Virus record (IMG/VR): IMGVR_UViG_3300037483_001334
Direction: 5' to 3' (one strand)
Source of the DNA: a virus
DNA: 64,000 nucleotides
The notes below the pieces were generated by a model that had not been told where the DNA came from, did no database searches, and worked only from the letters and a program-made list of their open reading frames with translations. The translations under genes were made by a program, and so were the position numbers. Shown here one piece after another: positions 28,501-52,177 of the stretch (position 1 is the stretch's first letter; each line of letters starts with the position of its first letter).

Positions 28501-30318
28501 ATGGCCGTTCTGATCGCATTCATTCTCGGCGTCGCGCTCGTCGCGACCCCCATCGTTCTCGACGCTGTCGGGATTCACCTCGGCACCGCATCGCAGGTCA
28601 CGATGACCGCATCGGGCGCGGCGATGATCCTGTTCAGCGCAGTCGCGTTCGTGTTCACGCGCCTCTACCACAAGACGAAGGCGTCGGAAGCGTTCGTGCG
28701 CACCGGTCAGGGCGGCGCGAAGGTGATCCAGGACGGCGGAGCGGTCATCGTGCCGTTCATCCACGAGCTGGTGCGCGTCTCGCTGCGCACGCAGCGCCTG
28801 GAGGTCATCCGCGCCAACGAGAATTCGCTAATCACGCACGACAAGCTGCGTGCCGACATCCGCGCCGAGTTCTTCGTGCGCGTCGACCCGGAGGTGAGCG
28901 CGATCCTCCAGGCGGCCCGTTCTCTCGGTGACGGCCAGAGCGATCACGACGCGGTGAAGCTCCTCGTGGAGGACAAGCTCGTCAGCGCGCTCCGCACCGC
29001 CGCGGCGACCAAGACGCTCGAAGAGCTGAACAGCGAGCGGGACAAGTTCCTGGAGAAGGTCACGACGCTGCTCCAGAACGATCTGAAGAACAACGGTCTC
29101 GTGCTGGAGACGGTGACGATCTCGGCGCTCGATCAGACGGATCCGAAGTTCCTCAAGACGAACAACATCTTCGACGCGCAGGGCAGCAAGAAGATCGCCG
29201 AAATCACGCAGGCCAGCCTGACCGAGCGCAACGCGCTGGAGCGCACAGGCGAGGAGACGCGCAAGCAGCAGGACGTCGAGAACCGCAAGCGCATTCTGGC
29301 GATGGAGCAGGACGAGAAGCGCGCGACGGCCACGCAGGAGGCGGAGGTCGCGCAGCTGCGTGCGACGGCAACGCGCGACTCGACGACGAAGGTCATCGAG
29401 ATGGAAAAGGAGACGCAGCTCGCCAACATCGGCAAGCAGCGCGACCTGGAGGTCGCCGAGACCCAGCGTCAGCAGGCCCTGGCCCTCGCGGAAGAGCTGA
29501 AGGGCAAGGAGGTCTCGATCGCGCAGCAGGCCCGTGAGCAGGCGACCCTCGTGGCGCAGCAGCAGAAGGAGGCGGCTGGCGCGACGGCCCAGGCTGAGAA
29601 GGCGGAGCAGCAGCGCATCCTCGCGAAGAAGGAGGCCGAGGTCGCGAGCGCCCAGCAGGAGATCGAGACGATCAAGATCACGCAGCAGGCGGAGCGCGCA
29701 AAGGCGAAGAGCGTCATCGAAGCTCAGGCAGAGGCCCAGCGGTCAGTGCTGAAGAGCAACGCCGAGTCGGACGCGCAGTCGTATCAGATCGAGACGGGTG
29801 CGAAGTCCCGTCGGCTGGCCGCCGACGCCGAGGCCGAGGCGGTGCTCAAGAAGGCGACCGCCGAGACGGACGCTGACAAGATGCGTGCGGGTGCCGAGAA
29901 GGTCCGCGCGATGGTTCCGGTCGACGTGCGCAGGGCAGAGGTCGAGGTCGAGCGAGATCGGGTCGAGACCGTCGTCAAGCCCGAACTGGAAGCCCGCGAG
30001 AAGCACGGCAAGGTCGCGCAGGACTTCGAGATCGCGAAGATGCAGGTCATCGCGGAGAAGGAGGTCCGCATCGCGTTCGCGACGGCGCAGGCGACCGTCT
30101 TCTCGCGCATGGAGGCGAAGTTCTACGGCTCGCCGGCAGACGCCGCGAAGATGCTCGCATCGTTCACCGGCGGCCAGAGCCTGGCGACGACGGTCGAGGG
30201 GCTCGCCGAGAACATGAGCGAGTCGTCGAAGACGTTCGTGGGCGATGCGGTCGTGGCCGTAGGCAGGGCCGCTGTGCAGGCCTTGCAGTCAGCGCCGTCG
30301 GCGCCGAACGGCAAGTAG
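28501..30318 (+). CDS. flotillin/SPFH (band 7) domain protein (YqiK-like)
   Basis: N-terminal TM, SPFH core, long Ala/Glu/Gln-rich coiled coil. Confidence 0.7.
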   Translation: MAVLIAFILGVALVATPIVLDAVGIHLGTASQVTMTASGAAMILFSAVAFVFTRLYHKTKASEAFVRTGQGGAKVIQDGGAVIVPFIHELVRVSLRTQRLEVIRANENSLITHDKLRADIRAEFFVRVDPEVSAILQAARSLGDGQSDHDAVKLLVEDKLVSALRTAAATKTLEELNSERDKFLEKVTTLLQNDLKNNGLVLETVTISALDQTDPKFLKTNNIFDAQGSKKIAEITQASLTERNALERTGEETRKQQDVENRKRILAMEQDEKRATATQEAEVAQLRATATRDSTTKVIEMEKETQLANIGKQRDLEVAETQRQQALALAEELKGKEVSIAQQAREQATLVAQQQKEAAGATAQAEKAEQQRILAKKEAEVASAQQEIETIKITQQAERAKAKSVIEAQAEAQRSVLKSNAESDAQSYQIETGAKSRRLAADAEAEAVLKKATAETDADKMRAGAEKVRAMVPVDVRRAEVEVERDRVETVVKPELEAREKHGKVAQDFEIAKMQVIAEKEVRIAFATAQATVFSRMEAKFYGSPADAAKMLASFTGGQSLATTVEGLAENMSESSKTFVGDAVVAVGRAAVQALQSAPSAPNGK

Positions 30319-31331: not shown

Positions 31332-32276
31332 ATGAAGTTCGATATCGGAAAGCACACGGTTTACCTCGCGCGCCACGGCAGCCGCGCGTATGGCACGAGC
31401 ACGCCCGAGTCCGATCTGGACATCAAGGGCTTCGCAGTCGCGCCGAAGTTGTACACGCTGGGCTTCGCGCACAAGTTCGAGCAGTACGAGGAGCACGGTG
31501 CAGACAGCCCCGAGGGGCCACTCGATTCTGTCGTGTACGACATCCGGAAGTTCTGCCGACTGGCGGCGGACTGCAATCCGAACATCATCGAGGTGCTGTT
31601 CATCGATGACTCGGACGTGCTGACGCTGCATCCAGCTGGGAAGCTGGTGCGCGACAACCGCGAGGCGTTCCTGTCGAAGAAGGCGCGCATCACGTTCAGC
31701 GGGTACGCCGTCAGCCAGCTGAAGCGCATCAAGACGCATCGCGGGTACCTGCTCAACCCGCCTACACACAAGCCGACGCGCGAGGAGTTCGGGCTGGCGG
31801 TCGACATGAAGATCACCGCCGACATGATGGGCGCGTTCGACAAGGTCACCGCTGGCGGAGAAGCTGTCGATCCGAACGTGATGGAGCTGGTGGCGCGCGA
31901 GAAGCGCTACAAGGCGGCGCTCGAACGGTGGAACCAGCACGAGAGCTGGAAGGCGAATCGGAACGAGAAGCGTGCGGCACTGGAAGCGGAACATTCATAC
32001 GATTCGAAGCACGCTGGACACCTCGTTCGGCTCTTGCGGATGTGTCGTGAGATCCTCACGGGCAAAGGAGTGATCGTGCGTCGGCCTGACGCGGCCGAGC
32101 TACTCGCCATCCGCAACGGCGAGTGGTCGTACGAGAAGCTCATCGAGTGGGCCGAGCGCGAGGACGGCGAGATGCGGGCGCTGTACGACGCGTCGACGCT
32201 GCCGGACGAACCGGACATGGGGAAGCTGAACGCGATCTGCGTCGAGGCGCAGGAGCGCTTCTGGAGGATGTCGTGA
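31332..32276 (+). CDS. nucleotidyltransferase (Pol-beta fold) with helical C-terminal domain
   Basis: ARHGSRAYGTSTPESDLDIKGF (hG[GS]x9-13Dh[DE]h motif). Confidence 0.5.
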   Translation: MKFDIGKHTVYLARHGSRAYGTSTPESDLDIKGFAVAPKLYTLGFAHKFEQYEEHGADSPEGPLDSVVYDIRKFCRLAADCNPNIIEVLFIDDSDVLTLHPAGKLVRDNREAFLSKKARITFSGYAVSQLKRIKTHRGYLLNPPTHKPTREEFGLAVDMKITADMMGAFDKVTAGGEAVDPNVMELVAREKRYKAALERWNQHESWKANRNEKRAALEAEHSYDSKHAGHLVRLLRMCREILTGKGVIVRRPDAAELLAIRNGEWSYEKLIEWAEREDGEMRALYDASTLPDEPDMGKLNAICVEAQERFWRMS

Positions 32277-40063: not shown

Positions 40064-40134
40064 GCGATCGTGGTCAAGTGGCTTGGCCTTGGGCTTCCAA
40101 CCCAATGACGCGTGTTCGATTCACGCCGATCGCT
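40064..40134 (+). tRNA. tRNA-Gly(TCC), U73
   Basis: acceptor GCGATCG/CGATCGC; loop CTTCCAA; T-arm GCGTG-TTCGATT-CACGC. Confidence 0.8.
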
Positions 40135-40206
40135 TCTCGGGCCGATGTTGTTGGTTACCGCAAATGGAGCCGTTGGTGTAGGTTCGATTCCTGCCGCCCT
40201 GCTGTC
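40135..40206 (+). other. tRNA-like segment with canonical T-arm (GTAGG-TTCGATT-CCTGC) but no resolvable acceptor
   Basis: manual folding failed; needs tRNAscan/ARAGORN. Confidence 0.25.
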
Positions 40207-40210
40207 TATG

Positions 40211-40235
40211 TAGGGTGTAGTTCAATGGTAGAACG
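40211..40235 (+). pseudogene. truncated tRNA 5' fragment (acceptor + D-arm TAGTTCAATGGTAGAAC only)
   Basis: no anticodon/T-arm/3' acceptor downstream. Confidence 0.3.
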
Positions 40236-40263
40236 ACGTTAAATCTCCGACGACGCCCCTTGT

Positions 40264-40333
40264 CCGAGAATCTGGAGCGGTCCTTCTGGGAAGGCCGACG
40301 ATTGCAACCCGTCGAGAGGTCTGTTCGATCCAG
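40264..40333 (+). tRNA. tRNA-Cys(GCA)-like, U73, short D-arm, A·C at 31·39
   Basis: acceptor GGAGCGG/CCGCTCC; loop TTGCAAC; T-arm GTCTG-TTCGATC-CAGAC. Confidence 0.4.
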
Positions 40334-40339
40334 ACCCGC

Positions 40340-40405
40340 TCCTTTCTGGCCGAAGTGGAACGGTTATCGTCTCGTAAACGAGAGGCCCAGGTTCGAGCCC
40401 TGGTC
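40340..40405 (+). other. tRNA-like segment (T-arm CCAGG-TTCGAGC-CCTGG; possible TAA anticodon region) not resolved
   Basis: manual folding ambiguous. Confidence 0.25.
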
Positions 40406-40412
40406 ATCGCCG

Positions 40413-40438
40413 AAAGGTGGTGGTAGCTTAGTGGAAGA
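40413..40438 (+). pseudogene. truncated tRNA 5' fragment (GTGGTGG-TA-GCTT-AGTGGAA-GAGC-G) lacking a 3' half
   Basis: tRNA-Arg starts 37 nt downstream, leaving no room for the rest. Confidence 0.3.
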
Positions 40439-40474
40439 GCGCTAAACACCGGGCTGCATCCCTTGCCAGATATT

Positions 40475-40548
40475 GCTGCGGAGGCCGCAGAGGAAGCGGC
40501 GCCCGTTTTCTAAACGGGAACTTGAGGGTTCGACTCCTTCCCGCAGCG
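40475..40548 (+). tRNA. tRNA-Arg(TCT)
   Basis: acceptor GCTGCGG/CCGCAGC; stem CCCGT/ACGGG, loop TTTCTAA. Confidence 0.8.
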
Positions 40549-40555
40549 TGGTTCT

Positions 40556-41228: not shown

Positions 41229-42041
41229 TTACCGGCGTCCGAGCTTCAGAACGTTCGGCGCCTTCTTGTTCCACCACCAGAGCTGGAGGCCTACGAGGCC
41301 GATCAGTCCGATGGTCGCGTACTTCCAGTTGTCACTGACGTCGCCGAGTCCGCGCATGCCACGCGAGGTGCCGCTGCGCACGGCGCCGCCGGCTCCGCCT
41401 GGGTGCTTGCCCATCACGCGTGGTCCGCCTCCGCGGTAGGTCATGGCCGATGGCCGCTGCCCCGAGCGCGCGCTCGGCATTCCACGGTGAACCATCGGGC
41501 TGCCGCCCGGGGCAAGCGGCTTCATGCTCGGGCCGCCGCGGTGCACCATGTCTCGGGCTGGTCCTCCGGCGGAAGGCCCCGGTCCTGGAGACCACCGCGG
41601 TCCGCCGCCCGGTCCACGTGCGCTGGGCCCGGCTCCTGGAGACCGAACGGGGCCATTGCCGGGAGCGCCGGGTCCACGTGCGCTCGGTCCCAGGCCTGGA
41701 TGCCAGCTCGGACCACCGCTCGGCCCGCCTGGCCCGCCCGGCTTGCGACCTCCCCAGCGGGGCCCAGGGCCACGAGGCCGGCGACGGCGCCACGGAACGC
41801 CGCTTCCGCTCCAGCCGCCGTCTCCGCCGCTCCATCCCCAGCCGCCGCCGTAGAAGTATGACTGGTCGGCAGGGGGCAACAACGCTTCGAGTCCTGGCTC
41901 GCAGCCGTACTCCCAGAGGACGCCAGCGGCATCTGCTTCGCACGAGTTCCGGTAGCAGCGGCCAGTGAACTGATCGTGGACGGGATCGGTTGCGTCGTCG
42001 CAGTACCCGAGCCGGCTGGGGATCGTAGAGAAGGTCGACAT
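41229..42041 (-). CDS. Pro/Gly-rich protein with C-terminal TM anchor
   Basis: internal ATG of minus ORF; TM YATIGLIGLVGLQLWWW; coding strand uncertain in this GC-rich repeat region. Confidence 0.3.
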   Translation of the reverse strand: MSTFSTIPSRLGYCDDATDPVHDQFTGRCYRNSCEADAAGVLWEYGCEPGLEALLPPADQSYFYGGGWGWSGGDGGWSGSGVPWRRRRPRGPGPRWGGRKPGGPGGPSGGPSWHPGLGPSARGPGAPGNGPVRSPGAGPSARGPGGGPRWSPGPGPSAGGPARDMVHRGGPSMKPLAPGGSPMVHRGMPSARSGQRPSAMTYRGGGPRVMGKHPGGAGGAVRSGTSRGMRGLGDVSDNWKYATIGLIGLVGLQLWWWNKKAPNVLKLGRR

Positions 42042-42113
42042 GTCGCCGATGCTAGCACAGCATCGGAAGAGCTTGCATCCCAGGAGCTTGCGACATACTA
42101 TCGCGCAATCAAT

Positions 42114-46117: not shown

Positions 46118-46789
46118 TCGTAGAGATTCGAGCTGGCGAAGGTGGCGCAGACGCCAAGGACTTGGTCCGCGAGCAGTTCGGCGTGTACGCCCGGCTGATG
46201 GAGCGGAGGGGTCTTTGACTTCGCTCTCGTAGATGAGCGCAGCGGCTTCCTCTCGTTCCAAGCGAGCGGCAAGGGAGCGCGTGAGACGTTCTCGCGAGAG
46301 TCAGGAGGGCACCGATGGCAGCGCGTGCCGCCCTCTGAGAAGCGTGGCCGCGTTCAGACATCGACGGTGACCGTTGCGGTGCTGGAAGAGCCGAAGGCGG
46401 CTGCGGTTCAGATCGAAGAGCGCGACGTCGAGTGGTCGACGTGCCGTGGCTCTGGTGCCGGAGGTCAGCATCGGAACGTCACCAACAGCGCGGTGCAGAT
46501 GGTGCACCTCCCGACCGGGCTTCGAGTGCGCGTCGAGAACGAGCGCTCGCAGCATGCGAACCGTGAGATCGCCCTGAGGATCTTGCGCGCGCGCATCCAC
46601 GAGCAGCGCGAGACCGCGAGCACGGCGGCACGGTCAGACAGTCGCCGGCAGCAAGTCGGCAGCGGTGAGCGCGCGGACAAGGTGCGGACGATCCGCGCAC
46701 AGGACGGACAGGTAACCGATCACCGATCCGGACAGCAAATCCGATACAAGGACTACGTCCGAGGAAACTGGGACGGCTTGTTCAGATAA
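46105..46789 (+). CDS. truncated class-I peptide chain release factor (RF1-like domains 2-4 with GGQ; tripeptide-motif position reads PPS) requiring a +1 programmed frameshift at CUU UGA C (46213-46219)
   Basis: Frame 0 (46105-46218) gives MESVIVEIRAGEGGADAKDLVREQFGVYARLMERRGL*. The +1 frame from 46217 continues the homology (ESGGHRWQRVPPSEKRGRVQTSTVTVAVLEE...GSGAGGQHRN...GQVTDHR) to 46789. GGAGG lies 3 nt upstream of CTT, as in prfB. Confidence 0.7.
46205..46219 (+). promoter_or_regulatory. prfB-type +1 frameshift element: internal Shine–Dalgarno GGAGG, 3-nt spacer, CUU UGA C
   Basis: cggaGGAGGggtCTTTGAC. Confidence 0.65.
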
Positions 46790-46876
46790 CGCTTGCACAG
46801 CGTTTCGCAGCATGCGACAGTCTTTTCCCGGTCGGTCAGCCGTTCGCAAGGACGGCTGGCCACCGGGTGCGCCTCT

Positions 46877-46960
46877 GGAGGGTGAAGCTACACGGCGTAG
46901 CGCGGGCCTTGAAAACCCGGTCTGTGGTAACCCCACGGGGTTCGAATCCTCCGCCCTCCG
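46877..46960 (+). tRNA. tRNA-Ser(TGA), type II, G73
   Basis: loop CTTGAAA; long variable arm TGTGG-TAACC-CCACG; C·A at 31·39. Confidence 0.6.
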
Positions 46961-46979
46961 TCTTCGGTTCCTGTTCACT

Positions 46980-47053
46980 GTCCCATTCGTCTAGATGGCC
47001 AAGGACGCCGGCCTCTCACGTCGGCAACGGGAGTTCAAATCTCCCATGGGACG
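46980..47053 (+). tRNA. tRNA-Glu(CTC)
   Basis: acceptor GTCCCAT/ATGGGAC; loop CTCTCAC; T-arm GGGAG-TTCAAAT-CTCCC. Confidence 0.8.
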
Positions 47054-47077
47054 TTCTCTTCTCTGGGCTTGGTTCTT

Positions 47078-47191
47078 TGTGCTGCACACCGGGTAGGCTC
47101 TAGTAGGCCTGTGCCGGTCGGTAGTAGGCGGCGTGCTAGCGCTGTGTACTGTCTGGGTCATACGGTTCGATTCCCCGTGCAGCCACCTTTT
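47078..47191 (+). ncRNA. YrlA-like RNA candidate (Ro60-associated tRNA mimic): terminal 7-bp stem GCTGCAC/GTGCAGC enclosing a tRNA-like T-arm, then CCACCTTTTCC
   Basis: T-loop GGTTCGATTCC but no tRNA acceptor; repeated GTAGTAGGC motifs; immediately upstream of the Ro60 gene. Confidence 0.35.
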
Positions 47192-47234
47192 CCCTGACAG
47201 CTGGGTTGTCGGGTTGTTCGTCTGGGAGGTTCCG

Positions 47235-48941
47235 ATGTCTGACTATGCTGCGCATCTGGGCGATGCGAAGAAGAAGGCTGTTTCTGTCCGCGAGGACGCT
47301 CCGCAGTCGGCCAAGGCCGACGCGCGTCAGGTCAAGAACGCGGCCGGCGGCTTCGCGTTCGAGGTCGACGACTGGAAGCGTCTCGATCGGTTCCTCATCC
47401 TGGGAGCCGAGGGCGGCACGTTCCATGTGGGCGAGCAGAAGCTCGTGCGCGAGGGCGCGGGTGCACTGGAGCGCTGCCTGAAGGACGACGCGAGCGCGGC
47501 GATCGAGCACATCGCGGCGATCAGCGAGTCGGGCCGCGCGCCGAAGAACGATCCTGCGATCTTCGCACTCGCCGTCGCAGCGTCACACGCAGACCCGGTC
47601 GTGCGGCGCCTCGCACTGGCTGCGCTCCCGCGCGTCTGCCGGATCGGCACGCACATCTTCCAGTTCGCGGAGCAGGTCCAGCAGCTTCGCGGCTGGGGCG
47701 CTGGCCTCCGGCGTGCGGTCGGCGCGTGGTACACGAGCAAGGAGGGTGGCGACCTTGCCTACCAGCTGGTGAAGTACCAGCAGCGCGGCGGTGTGTCGCA
47801 TCGCGATCTGCTCCGACTGTCGCACCCGAAGTCGAAGGATCCGATCGTGCAGGCTATCCTGCGGTGGACCATCGCGGGCTCGTCGGGCCTCGGCGAGCGC
47901 AGCGTCAAGCGCAAGCAGCAGGAGGCGGGCGTCTCGTACGAGGCGGTCGCGGCTGGCGCGCTGCCGAAGGTCATCGAGGGCTTCGAGCGCGTGAAGCTCG
48001 CAACGACGCCCGAGGAGTGTGCCGCTCTCGTGCGCGAGTACAACCTCACGCACGAGATGGTGCCGTCTGAGCAGCAGAAGCACGCCGTCGTCTGGGACGC
48101 GCTCCTTCAGCGCATGCCGATGCACGCGATGGTGCGGAACCTGGGCCGGATGACGGCGAACGGCCTGCTCGTTCCGGGCTCGGACGCGGCGAAGCACGTC
48201 GTGAAGCAGCTGAAGAACGAGGCGGCGATCAAGAAGTCGCGAATGCACCCGCTCGCGGTACTGATGGCACTTCGCACATACGCGTCGGGCCATGGCGAGA
48301 AGGGCAAGCTGACCTGGACGGCCGTGAAGCCGATCATCGACGCACTCGATGACGCGTTCTATGCTGCGTTCGAGACCGTCGAGCCCACGGGCAAGAGCAT
48401 CATGCTCGCGCTCGACGTGTCGGGCTCGATGGCTGGCAGCCAGGTTGCCGGCACGTCGTTGACCGCGCGCGAGGCCGTTGCCTGCATGGCGATGGTCACG
48501 GCTCGTCGCGAGCCGGACTACGACCTCGTGGGCTTCACGGCGGGCGGCTCCGGCTATGGCGGCCGCTGGGGCGGCTCGGCGTCGGGTCTCTCTCCCGTCG
48601 CGATCACGGCGAAGACGGCGCTGTCGGACGCGTGCAAGATCATGGAGCGCATGTCCATGGGCGGCACCGACTGTGCGCTTCCCATGCTTCACGCGCTCGG
48701 CAAGAAGCAGAAGGTTGAGGCCTTTTGCGTCTACACCGACAACGAGACCTGGGCGGGCGCCGTGCACCCGTTCAAGGCGATCAAGCAGTATCGTGAGCAG
48801 ATGGGCATCCCCGCGAAGCTCGTCGTCGTCGGCACGGAAGCGTCGCCGTTCACCATTGCCGATCCGTCGGACGCCGGCATGCTTGATGTCGTCGGCTTCG
48901 ACTCCGGCGCCCCCGCAGTCATCGCGGACTTCATCCGCTGA
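47235..48941 (+). CDS. rsr: Ro60 (Ro sixty-related, Rsr) orthologue: TROVE domain + C-terminal vWA/MIDAS
   Basis: Long helical-repeat N-terminal region; DVSGSM MIDAS motif; RBS GGGAGG 6 nt upstream. Confidence 0.75.
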   Translation: MSDYAAHLGDAKKKAVSVREDAPQSAKADARQVKNAAGGFAFEVDDWKRLDRFLILGAEGGTFHVGEQKLVREGAGALERCLKDDASAAIEHIAAISESGRAPKNDPAIFALAVAASHADPVVRRLALAALPRVCRIGTHIFQFAEQVQQLRGWGAGLRRAVGAWYTSKEGGDLAYQLVKYQQRGGVSHRDLLRLSHPKSKDPIVQAILRWTIAGSSGLGERSVKRKQQEAGVSYEAVAAGALPKVIEGFERVKLATTPEECAALVREYNLTHEMVPSEQQKHAVVWDALLQRMPMHAMVRNLGRMTANGLLVPGSDAAKHVVKQLKNEAAIKKSRMHPLAVLMALRTYASGHGEKGKLTWTAVKPIIDALDDAFYAAFETVEPTGKSIMLALDVSGSMAGSQVAGTSLTAREAVACMAMVTARREPDYDLVGFTAGGSGYGGRWGGSASGLSPVAITAKTALSDACKIMERMSMGGTDCALPMLHALGKKQKVEAFCVYTDNETWAGAVHPFKAIKQYREQMGIPAKLVVVGTEASPFTIADPSDAGMLDVVGFDSGAPAVIADFIR

Positions 48942-48949
48942 GTTCACCC

Positions 48950-49020
48950 GGCTCGGGCCGAAGTTCGACGGTTATCGGTTAAATCACCGTCGGATACCAC
49001 CTTGCCCGAGCCATCTTTTC
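48950..49020 (+). ncRNA. Y-RNA-like RNA 1
   Basis: 5' GGCTCGGGC-CGAAG ... CCACC-TTG-CCCGAGCC 3' plus a U-tract; resembles the conserved Ro-binding helix (GGCUGGUCCGAAG / CUUGACUAGCC) with a bulged purine. Confidence 0.5.
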
Positions 49021-49022
49021 TG

Positions 49023-49120
49023 TTCCCGGCCGACGCAGCACGGTTATCAACAACCATACTGCTGAACTTCCTTCGGGGAGTTTTCCGTGATGCACTTCCT
49101 TGCCGGGAGCTTCTATTCTG
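49023..49120 (+). ncRNA. Y-RNA-like RNA 2
   Basis: 5' TTCCCGG-CCGACG ... CCTTG-CCGGGAG 3'; internal GGTTATCAACAACC motif. Confidence 0.4.
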
Positions 49121-49152
49121 CTACGCTGACATCTCCGAAAGGAACCCATTCA

Positions 49153-49245
49153 CGACCGAGCCGACGTCTACGGGTTATCATCCAACAACCGGGCCTAAAC
49201 CCGGCAACAATGCCCCGTTGGCAATACCTTGCTCGGTCTTTTCTC
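49153..49245 (+). ncRNA. Y-RNA-like RNA 3
   Basis: 5' CGACCGAG-CCGACG ... CCTTG-CTCGGTC-TTTTCT 3'. Confidence 0.45.
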
Positions 49246-49250
49246 TTTCT

Positions 49251-49340
49251 GTTTCTAGCCGAAGCCTGCGGTTATCGTTATTCAAAACAACACGGCCGAA
49301 AGGCCGTCTCCGCCGGCATCCCTTGCTAGAAACTTCGCCT
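49251..49340 (+). ncRNA. Y-RNA-like RNA 4
   Basis: 5' GTTTCTAG-CCGAAG ... CCTTG-CTAGAAAC 3'; GGTTATCGTTATTCAAAACAAC motif. Confidence 0.45.
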
Positions 49341-49407
49341 CGTTCGTCTATTGGTAGGACCCTGGCCTTTCGAACCGGGTAAGCGAGTTCGATTCTCGCA
49401 CGAGGCA
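49337..49407 (+). tRNA. tRNA-Glu(TTC)
   Basis: acceptor GCCTCGT/ACGAGGC; loop CTTTCGA; C·A at 31·39; T-arm GCGAG-TTCGATT-CTCGC. Confidence 0.7.
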
Positions 49408-49408
49408 T

Positions 49409-49759
49409 GTGACGATGAAGACTTCAGATCTCCCTCACGTCTGTCATGCGGCCAACGGACGTGGTCGCGTGAAGATGGGCGGGACGTGTTCGGTCCGGCT
49501 GGAAAGCGCCGTCAACTGCACCAGCGGCTGGTCACCGTGCCTCGCGGACTTGGTGTTGCTCGCGGCGAGGCTGGGGCTCCCGTTGTCGAAGCTGGGCATC
49601 GCGCAGGAGTCGGCGGGCGACTGGGCGGAAGACGGCTACAATCTGGAGCTTCAGTGGGCCACCAAAGACTGCAAGCACTGCAAGGCCTTGAATCGTAAGC
49701 AGCTCAAGCAGCTGGCCGAGAAGGCGCTGTTGAAGCAACAACCGTTCTCCGCGGTGTGA
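49409..49759 (+). CDS. small Cys-containing protein (GTG 49409 or ATG 49415)
   Basis: ORF 116 aa. Confidence 0.35.
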   Translation: MTMKTSDLPHVCHAANGRGRVKMGGTCSVRLESAVNCTSGWSPCLADLVLLAARLGLPLSKLGIAQESAGDWAEDGYNLELQWATKDCKHCKALNRKQLKQLAEKALLKQQPFSAV

Positions 49760-49762
49760 TGC

Positions 49763-49833
49763 TCGGGGCTAGTTCAACGGCAGAACGGTGGTCTTTGGAC
49801 CCACGAATGCAGGTTCGATTCCTGCGCCCCGAA
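49763..49833 (+). tRNA. tRNA-Gln(TTG)
   Basis: U1-A72; D-arm GTTC-AACGGCA-GAAC; loop CTTTGGA; U·C at 31·39. Confidence 0.7.
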
Positions 49834-49837
49834 TGGA

Positions 49838-50074
49838 ATGCGTAGCGCAACCATTACGCTGAAGTCGGGCGAGGTGCTCTGCGCGCCGATCTGGGAGTGG
49901 CGTCCGGAAGCCGGCTGGCTGTCTCTCGTCGGAGACGTCTTGTCCATCGTGCGGCTCATCGACATCGACGAGGCACACGTGATGCAGCAGCAGCATATCT
50001 ACCAGCCGCTGGCTGGCGTAAGGGTCGATCTGCTGGAGCGCGCACGACGTGAAGGCTGGGACGGTATGTCGTAA
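49838..50074 (+). CDS. small hypothetical protein
   Basis: ORF 78 aa. Confidence 0.35.
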   Translation: MRSATITLKSGEVLCAPIWEWRPEAGWLSLVGDVLSIVRLIDIDEAHVMQQQHIYQPLAGVRVDLLERARREGWDGMS

Positions 50075-51153: not shown

Positions 51154-51362
51154 AGATCGGAAAAAAGACCGGGGACGGTCGCTTCGGCGAGTACACGTTC
51201 GAGCGTGATGGCGACAAGAAGCTCGTTACGATCGTGGGCCCCGATGTTGGCGACTATCACGAGTACCGTGAGACGATCTCGCTGCCCGTGGAGACCCTCG
51301 TGAAGTATCTGGTGAGGACGGGCAAGGTCGTGAGAAAGACAGCGGAGAAGGGGAAACGATGA
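51150..51362 (+). CDS. small hypothetical protein
   Basis: ATGA overlap. Confidence 0.3.
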   Translation: MKIGKKTGDGRFGEYTFERDGDKKLVTIVGPDVGDYHEYRETISLPVETLVKYLVRTGKVVRKTAEKGKR

Positions 51363-52177
51363 CGAAAAAGAAGGCGGCGGCTGGGCGCACTCACATCATG
51401 TTCGTGCTCGACAAGTCGCAGTCGATGCACAAGTTGCGGAACGAGGTCGTCGACGGCTTCAACAAGCTGATCGCTGAGCAGCGCGAGGAGAAGAGCCCTT
51501 GCTGGGTCAGCCTTGTGCAGTTCGACGATAGGTACGAGGAGACGTTCCTCGATGTGCCGCTGGAGGACGTGCCGCTGCTCACCGCGCTGATGTACGAACC
51601 TAGGGGCTACACTGCGCTCTTCGACGCGCTCGGCCGTGCGATCACATCGCTCGGGACCCGCATCGATCGGCTCGCGATCGGCGATCGACCGGAGAAGGTC
51701 ATCGTCATCGTGCACACCGACGGGGAAGAGAACTCCTCGAAGGAGCGTCGGCCGGCTGAGATCCGCGCGCTCGTGAAGGAGCAGCAGGAGGAGGGCGGCT
51801 GGCTCTTCGTGTTCTCGGGTGCGAACATCGACGCGTTCCAGGCAGGCGGGGACGTCGGCGTGGCCCGTGGTGCGACCGCCGGCTTCGTCGGCAGCAGCGT
51901 GGGTGTCCAAGCCCTGTACAGCTCGACGAGCGCCGCCGTGCTGCGCAGCCGGACGTCGGAGCCCGAGCACTACAAGCAGATGCGTACGGGCGGCATGGCG
52001 TTCTTCAATGAGAACGAGGTCAGCGCGATGGCTGCCGGCGACTCGTCGCTGCTCTCGGGGGCATCGAGCGGCGCGGTCCCACCGCTTCCGTCGGTCGTCG
52101 TCAGCGGTGGCAGCTTGCGCTCGCCGCTCGCCGCGAAGGGCGTGAGGCGCGCTAGTACGCCGGTCAAGAAGAGGTAA
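51359..52177 (+). CDS. von Willebrand factor A (vWA) domain protein
   Basis: MIDAS DKSQSM; HTDGEEN. Confidence 0.6.
   Translation: MTKKKAAAGRTHIMFVLDKSQSMHKLRNEVVDGFNKLIAEQREEKSPCWVSLVQFDDRYEETFLDVPLEDVPLLTALMYEPRGYTALFDALGRAITSLGTRIDRLAIGDRPEKVIVIVHTDGEENSSKERRPAEIRALVKEQQEEGGWLFVFSGANIDAFQAGGDVGVARGATAGFVGSSVGVQALYSSTSAAVLRSRTSEPEHYKQMRTGGMAFFNENEVSAMAAGDSSLLSGASSGAVPPLPSVVVSGGSLRSPLAAKGVRRASTPVKKR

What the first reader, a model, noticed from the sequence alone, without database searches (positions are those of the whole stretch)
47078..49340. Ro60 (Rsr) orthologue flanked by a YrlA-like tRNA mimic and four tandem Y-RNA-like genes with covarying Ro-binding helices
ORF 47235..48941 has TROVE-like helical repeats plus a C-terminal vWA/MIDAS domain, as in Ro60/Rsr. 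Directly downstream are four tandem modules. Each has a 7-9 bp terminal helix formed by its 5' and 3' ends, flanked by conserved 5' CCGA(A/C)G and 3' CCTTG that can form a bulged helix like the Ro-binding site of Y RNAs (human GGCUGGUCCGAAG / CUUGACUAGCC). The helix sequences differ between copies, but complementarity is maintained, which looks like compensatory covariation. Each module has an internal GGTTATC(N)AACAAC motif and ends in a U-tract. Upstream of rsr, a ~115-nt element has a 7-bp terminal stem enclosing a tRNA-like T-arm, the architecture of YrlA. A tandem four-copy Y-RNA array on a phage, set among tRNAs, an RF variant, a vWA protein and an RNA ligase, suggests an RNA-surveillance/translation module.
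Basis: partly seen in the sequence, partly recalled or inferred. Interest (0 to 1): 0.85.

Follow-up and report, generated by a model that had tools for sequence, protein, structure and literature searches.

The report
Phage Ro60 gene with six Y RNAs
A large uncultured phage carries a Ro60 RNA-binding protein gene and six small partner "Y RNA" genes set among its tRNA genes; this is a well-preserved new example of a protein-RNA pair already known from bacteria and other phages, not a new kind of system.

Summary
The core of the finding holds. ORF 47235-48941 is a full Ro60/Rsr orthologue (TROVE 1.7e-45, Ro60-vWA 4e-59, X. laevis Ro60 1.5e-121). Directly 3' lie four real Y-RNA genes (48950-49012, 49022-49110, 49154-49238, 49251-49333). 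Each has a free-varying but always complementary 7-8 bp terminal stem, an invariant CGA/UUG bulged helix, an upper stem and GGUUAUC. Across 24 copies from eight related contigs, 93.7% of cells pair and 14 of 20 pairs show compensatory change.

One claim fails. The "YrlA-like" element at 47081-47183 is a conserved tRNA-like RNA, but it has no Ro-binding motif and no YrlA match. The true YrlA-type tRNA mimics are two genes 7 kb upstream (40134-40270 and 40342-40473), interleaved with tRNAs. A model built without window sequences scores them 70.6 and 68.5 bits.

Phage Ro60 with Y RNAs is already known: mycobacteriophages and others (Chen 2014), and Thermus phage phiLo shown biochemically (2025). 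The same short Y RNA sits beside Ro60 in 65 of 80 bacterial/MAG loci searched. Verdict: new member of a known kind, moderate interest. Noteworthy side points are the tight embedding in tRNA arrays and the near-metazoan (nematode sbRNA-like) consensus.

The parts
47235..48941 (+). rsr: Ro60/Rsr orthologue, 568 aa (TROVE HEAT-repeat ring plus Ro60-type vWA domain with an intact MIDAS motif)
   Evidence: Pfam TROVE 1.7e-45 and vWA_Ro60 4e-59. PDB: X. laevis Ro60 1yvp 1.5e-121, D. radiodurans Rsr 2nvo 7.8e-103. NCBIfam Rsr 1.6e-145. D394, S396, S398, T478 and D502 are invariant in a 14-sequence alignment.
48950..49012 (+). Short Y RNA M1. Layout: 8-bp lower stem, CCGAAG/CCUUG bulged helix, 8-bp upper stem, GGUUAUC, small loop.
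   Evidence: R1 77.3 bits, E 2e-16. Rfam RF01656 40.3 bits, above its gathering score of 38. Fold z = -4.19.
49022..49110 (+). Short Y RNA M2 (CCGACG variant). It has an extra UUCG-capped hairpin in the loop. This copy is additional compared with the three-module arrays of the closest relatives.
   Evidence: R1 46.6 bits, E 9e-9. Fold z = -3.14. Relatives carry three modules.
49154..49238 (+). Short Y RNA M3 (CCGACG variant), with an internal CCGGGC/GCCCGG hairpin and an A/C-rich loop
   Evidence: R1 42 bits, E 1e-7. Rfam RF01656 32.1 bits. Orthologues in L001, L003, L005 and L006.
49251..49333 (+). Short Y RNA M4 (CCGAAG). It ends 3 nt before tRNA-Glu(ttc).
   Evidence: R1 39.8 bits, E 4e-7. 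Fold z = -4.13. The last module lies 1-4 nt before a tRNA in all seven related contigs.
40134..40270 (+). YrlA-type Y RNA 1. Layout: lower stem, CCGAUG, upper stem, GGUUACC, T-arm, acceptor-like hairpin, D-arm, CCUUG. It lies between tRNA-Gly and tRNA-Cys.
   Evidence: R2, a model built without window sequences, scores it 70.6 bits, E 7e-14. It aligns with the mycobacteriophage JayJay YrlA. Rfam RF02553 YrlA 31.9 bits, E 1.7e-5, below the gathering score of 69.
40342..40473 (+). YrlA-type Y RNA 2. Layout: CCGAAG, GGUUAUC, V hairpin, T-arm, acceptor-like hairpin, D-arm, CCUUG. It lies between tRNA-Cys and tRNA-Arg(tct).
   Evidence: R2 68.5 bits, E 2e-13. Sequence and fold.
47081..47183 (+). 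Conserved tRNA-like structured element between tRNA-Glu(ctc) and rsr: an acceptor-like 7-bp stem, two hairpins and a T-loop. It is not a YrlA, and its function is unknown.
   Evidence: Homologues exist only in L003 (with the duplicate contigs L004, L100 and L107) and L005. The terminal stem shows two compensatory changes between the window and L003/L005. No Rfam match. ARAGORN calls it only at -ps80, and inconsistently.
49337..49407 (+). tRNA-Glu(ttc), 3 nt after the last Y RNA
   Evidence: ARAGORN. Rfam tRNA 50.4 bits.
46979..47054 (+). tRNA-Glu(ctc) upstream of rsr. In L001, L006, L007 and L009 it lies about 25-40 nt from the rsr start.
40064..40549 (+). Block tRNA-Gly(tcc) | YrlA-1 | tRNA-Cys | YrlA-2 | tRNA-Arg(tct), with spacers of 0-3 nt

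Best explanation
The window is part of a large (jumbo-type) uncultured phage. It encodes a complete Ro60/Rsr ribonucleoprotein module: one Ro60 ring protein and six cognate Y RNAs.

Four are short stem-loop Y RNAs in tandem directly 3' of rsr. Two are YrlA-type Y RNAs with a permuted tRNA-like domain, about 7 kb upstream and interleaved with tRNAs. All lie on the rsr strand inside a roughly 15-kb array of 30 tRNA genes.

Proposed mechanism:
(i, inferred) The Y RNAs are made as parts of long tRNA-array transcripts. The tRNA-end enzymes release them: RNase Z or 3' trimming at the upstream tRNA, and RNase P at the downstream tRNA.
(ii, inferred from the conserved site) Ro60 binds each Y RNA through the invariant bulged helix, 5'-C(C)GA..G paired with 3'-C.UUG, stacked on a lower stem whose sequence varies but which always pairs.
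(iii, inferred by analogy with D. radiodurans, Salmonella and Thermus phage phiLo) The different loops or tRNA-like domains of the six Y RNAs gate the Ro60 cavity and tether Ro60 to host partners such as PNPase. This would give RYPER-like machines that trim or degrade structured or misfolded RNA during infection. Plausible substrates are the phage's own abundant tRNA precursors, or host RNAs.

Identity and architecture are shown computationally. Binding, processing and biological role are inferred.
For: Protein. TROVE plus Ro60-vWA domains. Full-length matches to solved Ro60 and Rsr structures. MIDAS residues invariant.

Short Y RNAs.
- All four are found by a covariance model at E = 2e-16 to 4e-7, with no other credible hit in the window.
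- In 24 copies from the window and seven related contigs, 93.7% of cells pair, against 36-42% when partners are slid.
- In the same set, 14 of 20 pairs show compensatory change.
- The C-G, G.U and A-U pairs of the CGA/UUG helix are invariant in 24 of 24 copies. This is the pattern expected for a protein-recognition site on a structural stem.
- Ten type-1 copies aligned by MAFFT alone give 95% pairing.
- The window's four copies alone give 5 of 9 covarying pairs.
- M1 scores above the Rfam gathering score for the nematode stem-bulge RNA family.

Linkage to Ro60.
- The same model gives 81 hits in 65 of 80 bacterial/MAG Ro60 loci, all on the Ro60 strand.
- It also hits next to Ro60 in the isolated phages JayJay and Farewell.

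YrlA types.
- A model built without window sequences scores 70.6 and 68.5 bits.
- T-arm and D-arm align with the JayJay YrlA.
- Sub-threshold but specific Rfam YrlA hit.

Processing.
- No promoter-like sites in 46200-49900.
- Spacers of 0-4 nt between Y RNAs and tRNAs, conserved in seven contigs.
- The same tRNA|Y|tRNA|Y|tRNA layout occurs in Gordonia phage Sixama.

Precedent. Chen et al. 2014 (PMC4201824) report YrlA RNAs in 254 bacteria and 22 phages. In M. smegmatis, YrlA and YrlB are cut from one precursor, and RNase P cleaves YrlA. Thermus phage phiLo Ro60 binds two phage Y RNA-like molecules and forms a complex with host PNPase (PMC12135203).
Against: - There is no expression, binding or processing data for this phage, and its host is unknown.
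- Rfam's vertebrate Y_RNA family gave no hit at E <= 10.
- M2 and M4 get no hit from any Rfam family, and M3 and both YrlA types are below gathering scores.
- M2 and M3 carry CCGACG rather than the published GNCGAA motif.
- The protein scores 485.6 bits against NCBIfam's Rsr equivalog cut-off of 900. It is therefore a diverged Ro60, about 43-47% identical to Ro60 of isolated phages.
- The YrlA genes are 7 kb from rsr, outside the 4-kb criterion of Chen et al.
- The covariation counts on A6 come from a model-fitted alignment, which leans towards the structure.
- PNPase recruitment and the tRNA quality-control role are analogy only.
Confidence: 0.8

Rival explanations
1. The four downstream modules are not trans-acting RNAs. 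They are cis elements of the rsr transcript: stacked intrinsic terminators, or 3'-UTR stabilising hairpins or REP-like repeats. They would protect the mRNA or separate it from the tRNA genes.
For: They lie directly 3' of the stop codon. M1-M3 are followed by U-rich tails. One weak terminator-like call overlaps the end of M2.
Against: - The U-tails are not conserved in relatives, and M4 has none.
- In most bacterial loci and in mycobacteriophages the same RNA lies upstream of Ro60.
- The invariant CCGAAG / GGUUAUC / CCUUG motifs match the Ro-binding site, not a terminator.
- The stems are interrupted by conserved internal loops, unlike terminators.
Confidence: 0.05
2. The modules are genuine Ro60-linked RNAs, but Ro60 is not their main partner in the phage. 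They act mainly as decoys or sponges for host tRNA- or RNA-processing or defence nucleases (for example PNPase, RNase P/Z, anticodon nucleases). Ro60 would only stabilise them.
For: - They are embedded in tRNA arrays. Two copies carry tRNA-like domains.
- RNA-repair-type genes are nearby: RlaP and an RF1-like fragment.
- The phiLo authors proposed hijack of PNPase (PMC12135203).
Against: There is no direct evidence. The short Y RNAs have no tRNA-like part. The strict conservation is in the Ro-binding helix, which argues that Ro60 binding is the selected function.
Confidence: 0.1
3. The upstream element 47081-47183 is a decaying tRNA gene or insertion remnant with no function of its own. Alternatively, it is merely an RNase P/Z processing handle for the 5' end of the rsr mRNA. 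Either way it is not a Ro60 partner.
For: - It is absent from L001, L006, L007 and L009, where tRNA-Glu(ctc) nearly abuts rsr.
- The window copy has a deletion of about 50 nt and a mismatched T-stem compared with L003 and L005.
- Its fold is no better than shuffles.
- No Ro-binding motif and no Rfam hit.
Against: - Long stretches are identical across contigs whose Ro60 proteins are only 68-70% identical.
- The terminal stem keeps pairing through two double changes, which suggests selection on structure.
Confidence: 0.5

Closest known systems
Mycobacteriophage (cluster C, e.g. ET08/JayJay) Ro60 with YrlA RNA (Chen et al. 2014, PMC4201824)
   Same: A phage-encoded Ro60 with same-strand Y RNAs next to it, in a tRNA-rich phage. 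The YrlA has a T-arm, an acceptor-like hairpin and a D-arm. GGUUAYC follows the upper stem. In JayJay I also find two short Y RNAs flanking the YrlA (L012 2558-2632, 2651-2806, 2834-2906).
   Different: - In JayJay all three RNAs lie upstream of Ro60 and the 3' motif is CAUG.
- Here four short copies lie downstream and the 3' strand is the metazoan-like CCUUG.
- Here the YrlA types are displaced 7 kb into the tRNA array.
- Ro60 identity is only about 43%.
Thermus phage phiLo phiRo60 with Yrl1/Yrl2 (NAR 2025, PMC12135203)
   Same: A phage Ro60 plus phage-encoded Y RNA-like RNAs, identified by a terminal stem and the CGAA motif. Binding and a complex with host PNPase were shown experimentally, which is the mechanism I infer here.
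   Different: phiLo has two RNAs upstream of the gene, and no tRNA-like Y RNA is mentioned in that paper. The window has six, including two tRNA mimics, all within a tRNA array. Nothing is tested here.
D. radiodurans Rsr / Yrn1, Yrn2 / PNPase (RYPER) and Salmonella Rsr / YrlA, YrlB
   Same: Several Y RNAs per locus: one type with a tRNA-like module and one a simple hairpin. Chen et al. 2014 state that D. radiodurans keeps both strands of the Ro-binding helix, as this phage does. Its Y RNAs are encoded next to a tRNA.
   Different: These are cellular, stress-induced loci; in Salmonella the locus is in the rtcBA RNA-repair operon. The phage array has more copies and sits inside a large tRNA array.
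Nematode stem-bulge RNAs (Rfam RF01656) and vertebrate Y RNAs
   Same: The order of elements is the same: lower stem, bulged CCGrAG, upper stem, GGUUAUC, loop, ACCAnCUUG, lower stem (alignment). M1 and eight short Y RNAs in the related/MAG loci scanned score above the family's gathering score.
   Different: - Those are eukaryotic Pol III genes with DNA-replication roles that do not depend on Ro60.
- The vertebrate Y_RNA family gives no hit here.
- The similarity could be shared ancestry, or could reflect the shared Ro60-binding constraint.

Membership tests
Ro60 / Rsr protein family | TROVE (HEAT-repeat ring) domain | tested here: met
   Pfam PF05731, 1.7e-45, 156.5 bits against a cut-off of 23
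Ro60 / Rsr protein family | C-terminal Ro60-type vWA domain with a MIDAS motif (DxSxS...T...D) | tested here: met
   PF25045, 4e-59. D394, S396, S398, T478 and D502 are invariant in alignment A3.
Ro60 / Rsr protein family | Full-length similarity to experimentally solved Ro60/Rsr | tested here: met
   1yvp residues 7-533, 1.5e-121; 2nvo, 7.8e-103
NCBIfam NF041674 'RNA-binding protein Rsr' equivalog | Score at or above the curated equivalog cut-off (900 bits) | tested here: not met
   485.6 bits, E 1.6e-145. This is a diverged Ro60, not the narrow equivalog set.
Y RNA (Ro60-binding ncRNA), short stem-loop type | 5' and 3' ends pair into a terminal stem supported by covariation | tested here: met
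   93.7-95% of cells pair, and 12-14 pairs show compensatory change.
Y RNA (Ro60-binding ncRNA), short stem-loop type | Conserved Ro-binding motif near the 5' end (GNCGAAN0-1G of Chen 2014; GGUCCGA in vertebrates), with a 3' UUG partner forming a bulged helix | tested here: met
   M1 and M4 carry GCCGAAG. M2 and M3 carry GCCGACG, one deviation. All carry CCUUG. The CGA/UUG pairs are invariant in 24 of 24 copies.
Y RNA (Ro60-binding ncRNA), short stem-loop type | Encoded next to Ro60 and on the same strand | tested here: met
   The four modules lie 9-392 nt after the stop codon. The same linkage holds in 7 related contigs and in 65 of 80 bacterial loci, with all hits on the Ro60 strand.
Y RNA (Ro60-binding ncRNA), short stem-loop type | Physically bound and stabilised by Ro60 | not testable with these tools
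   Needs pull-down or EMSA.
Rfam RF01656 (nematode stem-bulge RNA) / RF00019 (Y_RNA) | Score at or above the gathering threshold | tested here: inconclusive
   RF01656: M1 scores 40.3 against 38 and passes; M3 scores 32.1 and fails; M2 and M4 give no hit. RF00019: no hit at E <= 10.
   No GNCGAA motif. The order is not permuted and the T-stem is mismatched. No RF02553 or tRNA hit even in a 180-nt lax search.
YrlA, tested on 40134-40270 and 40342-40473 | Ro-binding motif, plus T-arm, acceptor-like hairpin and D-arm in permuted order inside a terminal stem | tested here: met
   GCCGAUG and GCCGAAG. T-loop GGUUCGAnyCC. D-arm GUAGyUyAnUGGnAGAnC. An independent model, R2, scores 70.6 and 68.5 bits.
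YrlA, tested on 40134-40270 and 40342-40473 | Rfam RF02553 gathering score (69 bits), and the within-4-kb-of-Ro60 criterion of Chen 2014 | tested here: not met
   RF02553 scores 31.9 bits, E 1.7e-5, for 40151-40269. The genes lie about 7 kb upstream of rsr, though on the same strand. The YrlA-type RNA of the cluster C mycobacteriophage JayJay also got no gathering-level RF02553 hit, so that threshold is narrow.

The most novel reading that the evidence does not exclude
Ro60 and its Y RNAs form a dedicated accessory of mobile tRNA arrays. In this Ro60 clade the gene and its Y RNAs are almost always embedded in same-strand tRNA arrays: 48 of 60 loci carry at least 3 tRNAs within 3 kb, in the window's phage lineage, in Gordonia phage Sixama and in many MAG contigs. 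The Y RNAs are spaced like tRNAs, 0-4 nt from their neighbours. On this reading they would be matured by RNase P/Z as pseudo-tRNAs, and the RNP would police folding, trimming or decay of the array's own tRNA precursors, or protect them from host nucleases. A second reading is that these bacterial and phage short Y RNAs are true homologues of metazoan Y and stem-bulge RNAs (the same CCGAAG / GGUUAUC / ACCAnCUUG order). The whole protein-RNA pair would then have moved between domains of life, with large phages as plausible vehicles.
Probability: 0.3. Interest if true: 0.65.

Novelty: new member of a known kind. Interest (0 to 1): 0.4.

Why it matters
It adds a clean, multi-copy example of a phage Ro60-Y RNA module from outside the actinophage and Thermus phage examples. 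The lineage comprises uncultured jumbo-type phages, one on a 297-kb contig.

The module holds six Y RNAs of two architectural classes, so it offers a compact natural set for asking how different Y RNA loops re-target one Ro60 ring.

The invariant CGA/UUG helix against a freely covarying stem gives a precise, testable binding-site prediction.

The tight interleaving with tRNAs, also visible in an isolated and culturable phage (Gordonia phage Sixama), gives an accessible system. It could test whether Y RNAs are matured by tRNA-processing enzymes, and whether Ro60 serves tRNA-array quality control.

The finding does not change the known picture that phages carry Ro60 and Y RNAs.

Tried and rejected
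- Megablast of 46800-49500 against 50,697 phage records gave no match.
- Back-translated Ro60 patterns against IMG/VR viral contigs gave no relatives. Relatives came from the protein database instead.
- The promoter scan found none, and the terminator scan gave only weak calls.
- ARAGORN on the upstream element gave calls only at a very low threshold (-ps80). These differed between homologues (tRNA-Ala(agc) against a 4-base 'gcta' anticodon), so I rejected the element as a tRNA.
- A metagenome-wide pattern search for the upstream element's core found 13 stretches. Only two were real, both the L003 sequence again; the rest were chance matches in repetitive coding DNA.
- My nhmmer run failed on a format option and I did not repeat it.
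- My regex detector missed YrlA-2 and all actinophage Y RNAs. Covariance models were needed to find them.
I did not scan every ORF.
- Two reviews by the Wolin laboratory (PMC10870794, PMC6047535) were not held, so I could not check what they say about multi-copy or tRNA-linked Y RNAs.
- The regex hit at 42040-42096 has no GGUUAYC and no model hit. I treat it as chance.


Full report
OBSERVATION.

The region reads as the first-stage reader described. ORF 47235-48941 starts at an ATG preceded by GGGAGG. The longer mechanical ORF from the GTG at 47133 is not supported, because homologues align from the ATG.

Four modules follow the stop codon:
- M1, 48950-49012
- M2, 49022-49110
- M3, 49154-49238
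- M4, 49251-49333

Each module has, in order:
- a 7-8 bp terminal stem (GGCTCGGG/CCCGAGCC, GTTCCCGG/CCGGGAGC, GACCGAG/CTCGGTC, GTTTCTAG/CTAGAAAC)
- CCGA(A/C)G
- a 7-8 bp upper stem
- GGTTATC
- a variable loop
- the 3' strand of the upper stem
- CCTTG

All four fold with the terminal helix closed and more stably than shuffles, z = -2.7 to -4.2. RNAalifold on the four copies alone recovers the terminal helix, with 5 of 9 pairs changed on both sides.

Three details of the description are only partly right. AACAAC occurs in three modules. The U-rich tail occurs in three modules and is not conserved in relatives. M4 runs straight into tRNA-Glu(ttc).

THE PROTEIN.

The product matches Pfam TROVE (1.7e-45) and the Ro60-specific vWA domain (4e-59). 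It matches solved X. laevis and human Ro60 and D. radiodurans Rsr over its full length, at 1.5e-121 to 7.8e-103. The MIDAS residues are invariant in an alignment of 14 relatives.

It is a diverged Ro60:
- 485.6 bits against NCBIfam's Rsr equivalog cut-off of 900
- at most 47% identical to Ro60 of any of 357 phage records that carry one; the best are Sinorhizobium jumbo phage Phosso and Gordonia phage Sixama

RELATIVES AND COVARIATION.

The protein database holds the window's own protein, from a JGI contig of 66,678 bp. It also holds a graded series of relatives at 80-57% identity on metagenomic contigs, one of them 297 kb long. Every one of these has a gene-free gap of 360-670 nt after Ro60. 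A motif-plus-complementarity scan finds one to three modules of the same build in each gap.

Ten of the simplest copies were aligned by MAFFT alone. With the structure I wrote down, 95% of cells pair and 12 of 22 pairs change on both sides. When partners are slid, only 35-44% pair.

A covariance model built from these ten (R1) recovers all 24 modules in the eight contigs at E <= 6e-4. On that model-fitted alignment:
- 93.7% of cells pair
- 14 of 20 pairs show compensatory change
- the three pairs C-G, G.U and A-U between CGA and UUG never vary, 24 of 24

A freely covarying stem carrying an invariant bulged helix is what a protein-recognition site looks like. It matches the published Ro60 site: GGUCCGA with a bulged C in vertebrates, and GNCGAAN0-1G in bacteria (PMC4201824, PMC4726728).

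Rfam independently places M1 in RF01656, the nematode stem-bulge RNA family (Y RNA homologues), at 40.3 bits against a gathering score of 38. M3 scores 32.1 bits. The printed alignment shows the same order of elements: CCGrAG, upper stem, GGUUAUC, ACCAnCUUG. The vertebrate Y_RNA family does not hit.

HOW GENERAL IS THIS RNA?

R1 also finds copies next to Ro60 in isolated actinophages. In mycobacteriophage JayJay (cluster C) there are three RNAs in tandem upstream of Ro60: a short Y RNA, a YrlA and a second short Y RNA.

In 80 Ro60 loci from a one-genome-per-species collection (mostly Verrucomicrobiota and Polyangiaceae MAGs), R1 gives 81 hits in 65 loci. Every hit is on the Ro60 strand, and most lie 90-160 nt upstream of the gene. 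So the short Y RNA of this window belongs to a widespread Ro60-linked family.

Chen et al. 2014 reported YrlA-type RNAs in 254 bacteria and 22 phages, and noted a second, hairpin-type Y RNA in each species they studied (PMC4201824). A 2025 study showed that a Thermus phage Ro60 binds two phage-encoded Y RNA-like molecules and assembles with host PNPase (PMC12135203). The kind of system is therefore known.

THE 'YrlA-LIKE' ELEMENT.

Its 7-bp terminal stem keeps pairing through two double substitutions: GCTGCAC/GTGCAGC against CCTGTAC/GTACAGG. It also carries a GGTTCGATTCC T-loop.

It is not a YrlA, for these reasons:
- There is no GNCGAA motif.
- The tRNA-like parts are not in the permuted T / acceptor-like hairpin / D order.
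- The window copy has a deletion of about 50 nt and a mismatched T-stem.
- Its fold is no better than shuffles.
- Rfam gives no YrlA or tRNA match even when only 180 nt are searched.
- ARAGORN calls it only at a very low threshold, and differently in each homologue.
- L001, L006, L007 and L009 lack it altogether. In those contigs tRNA-Glu(ctc) lies about 25-40 nt from rsr.

I class it as a tRNA-like element of unknown role. It may be a processing handle or a decaying insertion.

THE REAL YrlA GENES.

The motif scan flagged 40134-40270. It aligns with the JayJay YrlA and with verrucomicrobial YrlA-type RNAs through the T-arm, the acceptor-like hairpin and the D-arm. It gets a specific sub-threshold hit to Rfam YrlA: 31.9 bits, E 1.7e-5, gathering score 69.

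I then built a model from six YrlA-type RNAs, none from the window (R2). It scores 40134-40270 at 70.6 bits. It also reveals a second gene at 40342-40473, at 68.5 bits. That gene has a textbook layout: CCGAAG, GGUUAUC, V hairpin, T-arm, GAAA-capped acceptor-like hairpin, D-arm, CCUUG.

The local order is tRNA-Gly | YrlA-1 | tRNA-Cys | YrlA-2 | tRNA-Arg, with spacers of 0-3 nt. R2 finds the same interleaving in Gordonia phage Sixama: tRNA-Arg | Y | tRNA-Gln | Y | tRNA-Ile. The window thus encodes six Y RNAs.

CONTEXT.

The window carries 30 ARAGORN-called tRNAs between 34.8 and 49.8 kb, all on the + strand. One more, tRNA-Ser(UGA) at 46876-46960, was missed by ARAGORN but is called in the orthologous position of relatives.

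Neighbouring genes include:
- a protein equal to the C-terminal half of RF1 (46325-46789)
- a vWA protein (51359-52177)
- several HNH endonucleases
- a phage L5 gp82-family protein
- an RlaP RNA-repair-pathway nucleotidyltransferase (31332-32273)

An 803-aa ORF has relatives only in jumbo phages of 228-308 kb. I did not find an RNA ligase.

No sigma-70-like promoter lies between 46200 and 49900. In all seven related contigs the last Y RNA ends 1-4 nt before a tRNA.

MECHANISM.

Shown by computation:
- a complete Ro60
- six RNAs with the family's binding helix and covarying stems
- same-strand placement with tRNA-like spacing inside a tRNA array

Inferred:
- co-transcription with the tRNAs and release by RNase P/Z (precedent: M. 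smegmatis YrlA and YrlB come from one precursor, and RNase P cleaves YrlA; PMC4201824)
- Ro60 binding at the invariant helix
- use of the six different loops or tRNA-like domains to gate Ro60 and tether it to host factors such as PNPase (precedents: D. radiodurans RYPER and phage phiLo)

The biological role is the least certain step. Candidates are quality control or trimming of the phage's own tRNA precursors, or redirection of host RNA decay.

A SIDE OBSERVATION.

Of 60 Ro60 loci taken from MAGs, 55 have at least one tRNA within 3 kb of Ro60 and 48 have at least three. All are on the Ro60 strand, with up to 32 in one locus. Many of these contigs may themselves be phage or prophage DNA. I found no paper in the held library linking Ro60/TROVE to tRNA arrays, but the two relevant reviews were not available.

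VERDICT.

The true YrlA genes lie elsewhere in the window.

The system is a new member of a known kind. Interest is moderate (0.4). What gives it value is the copy number, the two architectural classes, the near-metazoan consensus and the tRNA-array embedding.

Noticed in passing
L015-L074 (60 MAG loci holding the closest cellular Ro60 relatives): 55 of 60 loci have at least one tRNA gene within 3 kb of Ro60, and 48 have at least three (up to 32 in L052). All are on the Ro60 strand. Ro60 plus Y RNAs embedded in tRNA arrays looks like a general property of this Ro60 clade. Many of these MAG contigs may be phage or prophage DNA.
   Followed up: partly
L008 4943-5071; L025 2801-2870; L027 2846-2916; L037 2628-2697; L045 2736-2807; L047 2844-2915; L063 2839-2912; L073 2905-2974: Rfam's nematode stem-bulge RNA family RF01656 scores Y RNAs next to Ro60 in these related/MAG loci above its gathering threshold (38.8-45 bits). 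A published review states that bacterial Y RNAs are not homologous to the vertebrate Y RNA clades (PMC4726728).
   Followed up: partly
L012 2558-2632, 2651-2806, 2834-2906 (mycobacteriophage JayJay); L011 5643-5772, 5851-5981 (Gordonia phage Sixama); L014 2708-2839; L013 2578-2712, 2726-2796: Isolated, annotated actinophages carry unannotated Y RNA genes. JayJay has a short/YrlA/short triplet upstream of Ro60. Sixama has two YrlA-type genes interleaved with tRNAs downstream of Ro60.
   Followed up: partly
window 46876-46960: A long-variable-arm tRNA with anticodon UGA (tRNA-Ser). ARAGORN missed it, and only Rfam's tRNA-Sec model hit it, at 37.7 bits against a gathering score of 47. ARAGORN calls the orthologues in L001, L005 and L006 tRNA-Ser(tga).
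   Followed up: partly
window 46325-46789: A 154-aa protein equal to the C-terminal half of release factor 1 (prfA profile positions 191-338; Pfam RF-1 domain, 1.4e-30). It has weaker matches to PrfH and ArfB. Relatives encode 142-219-aa PCRF+RF-1 proteins at the same position upstream of Ro60 (L003, L005, L006).
   Followed up: partly
window 31332-32273: An RlaP-family nucleotidyltransferase ('RNA repair pathway DNA polymerase beta family'; Pfam 8e-20, PHROG nucleotidyltransferase 2e-63). It lies just upstream of the tRNA array. I found no adjacent RNA ligase.
   Followed up: no
L001 7936-7980; L005 4706-4750: A conserved hairpin of about 45 nt (for example CACAGGCCGTGCTCGATGAGGTTCGTCGCAAGACCTCGGCCTGTG) lies between the second and third Y RNA modules in two relatives. 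The window lacks it. An unstructured 41-nt spacer (49112-49152) lies between M2 and M3 there.
   Followed up: no
L022 1877-1953; L040 6184-6258; many loci (e.g. L015 3312-3403): ARAGORN calls tRNA-'Stop'(tta) genes, that is ochre-suppressor-like anticodons, in two Ro60-linked tRNA arrays. It also calls a recurrent, unusually long (92-nt) tRNA-Ile(tat) in many of them.
   Followed up: no
L001 3835-5040 and 10195-11712; L003 5945-7447; L005 7160-8668: The 297-kb relative has an IS605-type TnpB (OrfB_IS605 plus a Cas12f1-like TNB domain) inserted upstream of Ro60. A conserved protein of about 500 aa with a faint or weak Cas12f1-like_TNB hit lies downstream of Ro60 in three relatives. No ORF of that size is listed in the corresponding part of the window (49.4-51.4 kb).
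   Followed up: no
window 28501-30318: A 605-aa protein with an SPFH/Band-7 domain (Pfam 1.6e-20), unusual-looking for a phage region. I did not examine it further.
   Followed up: no
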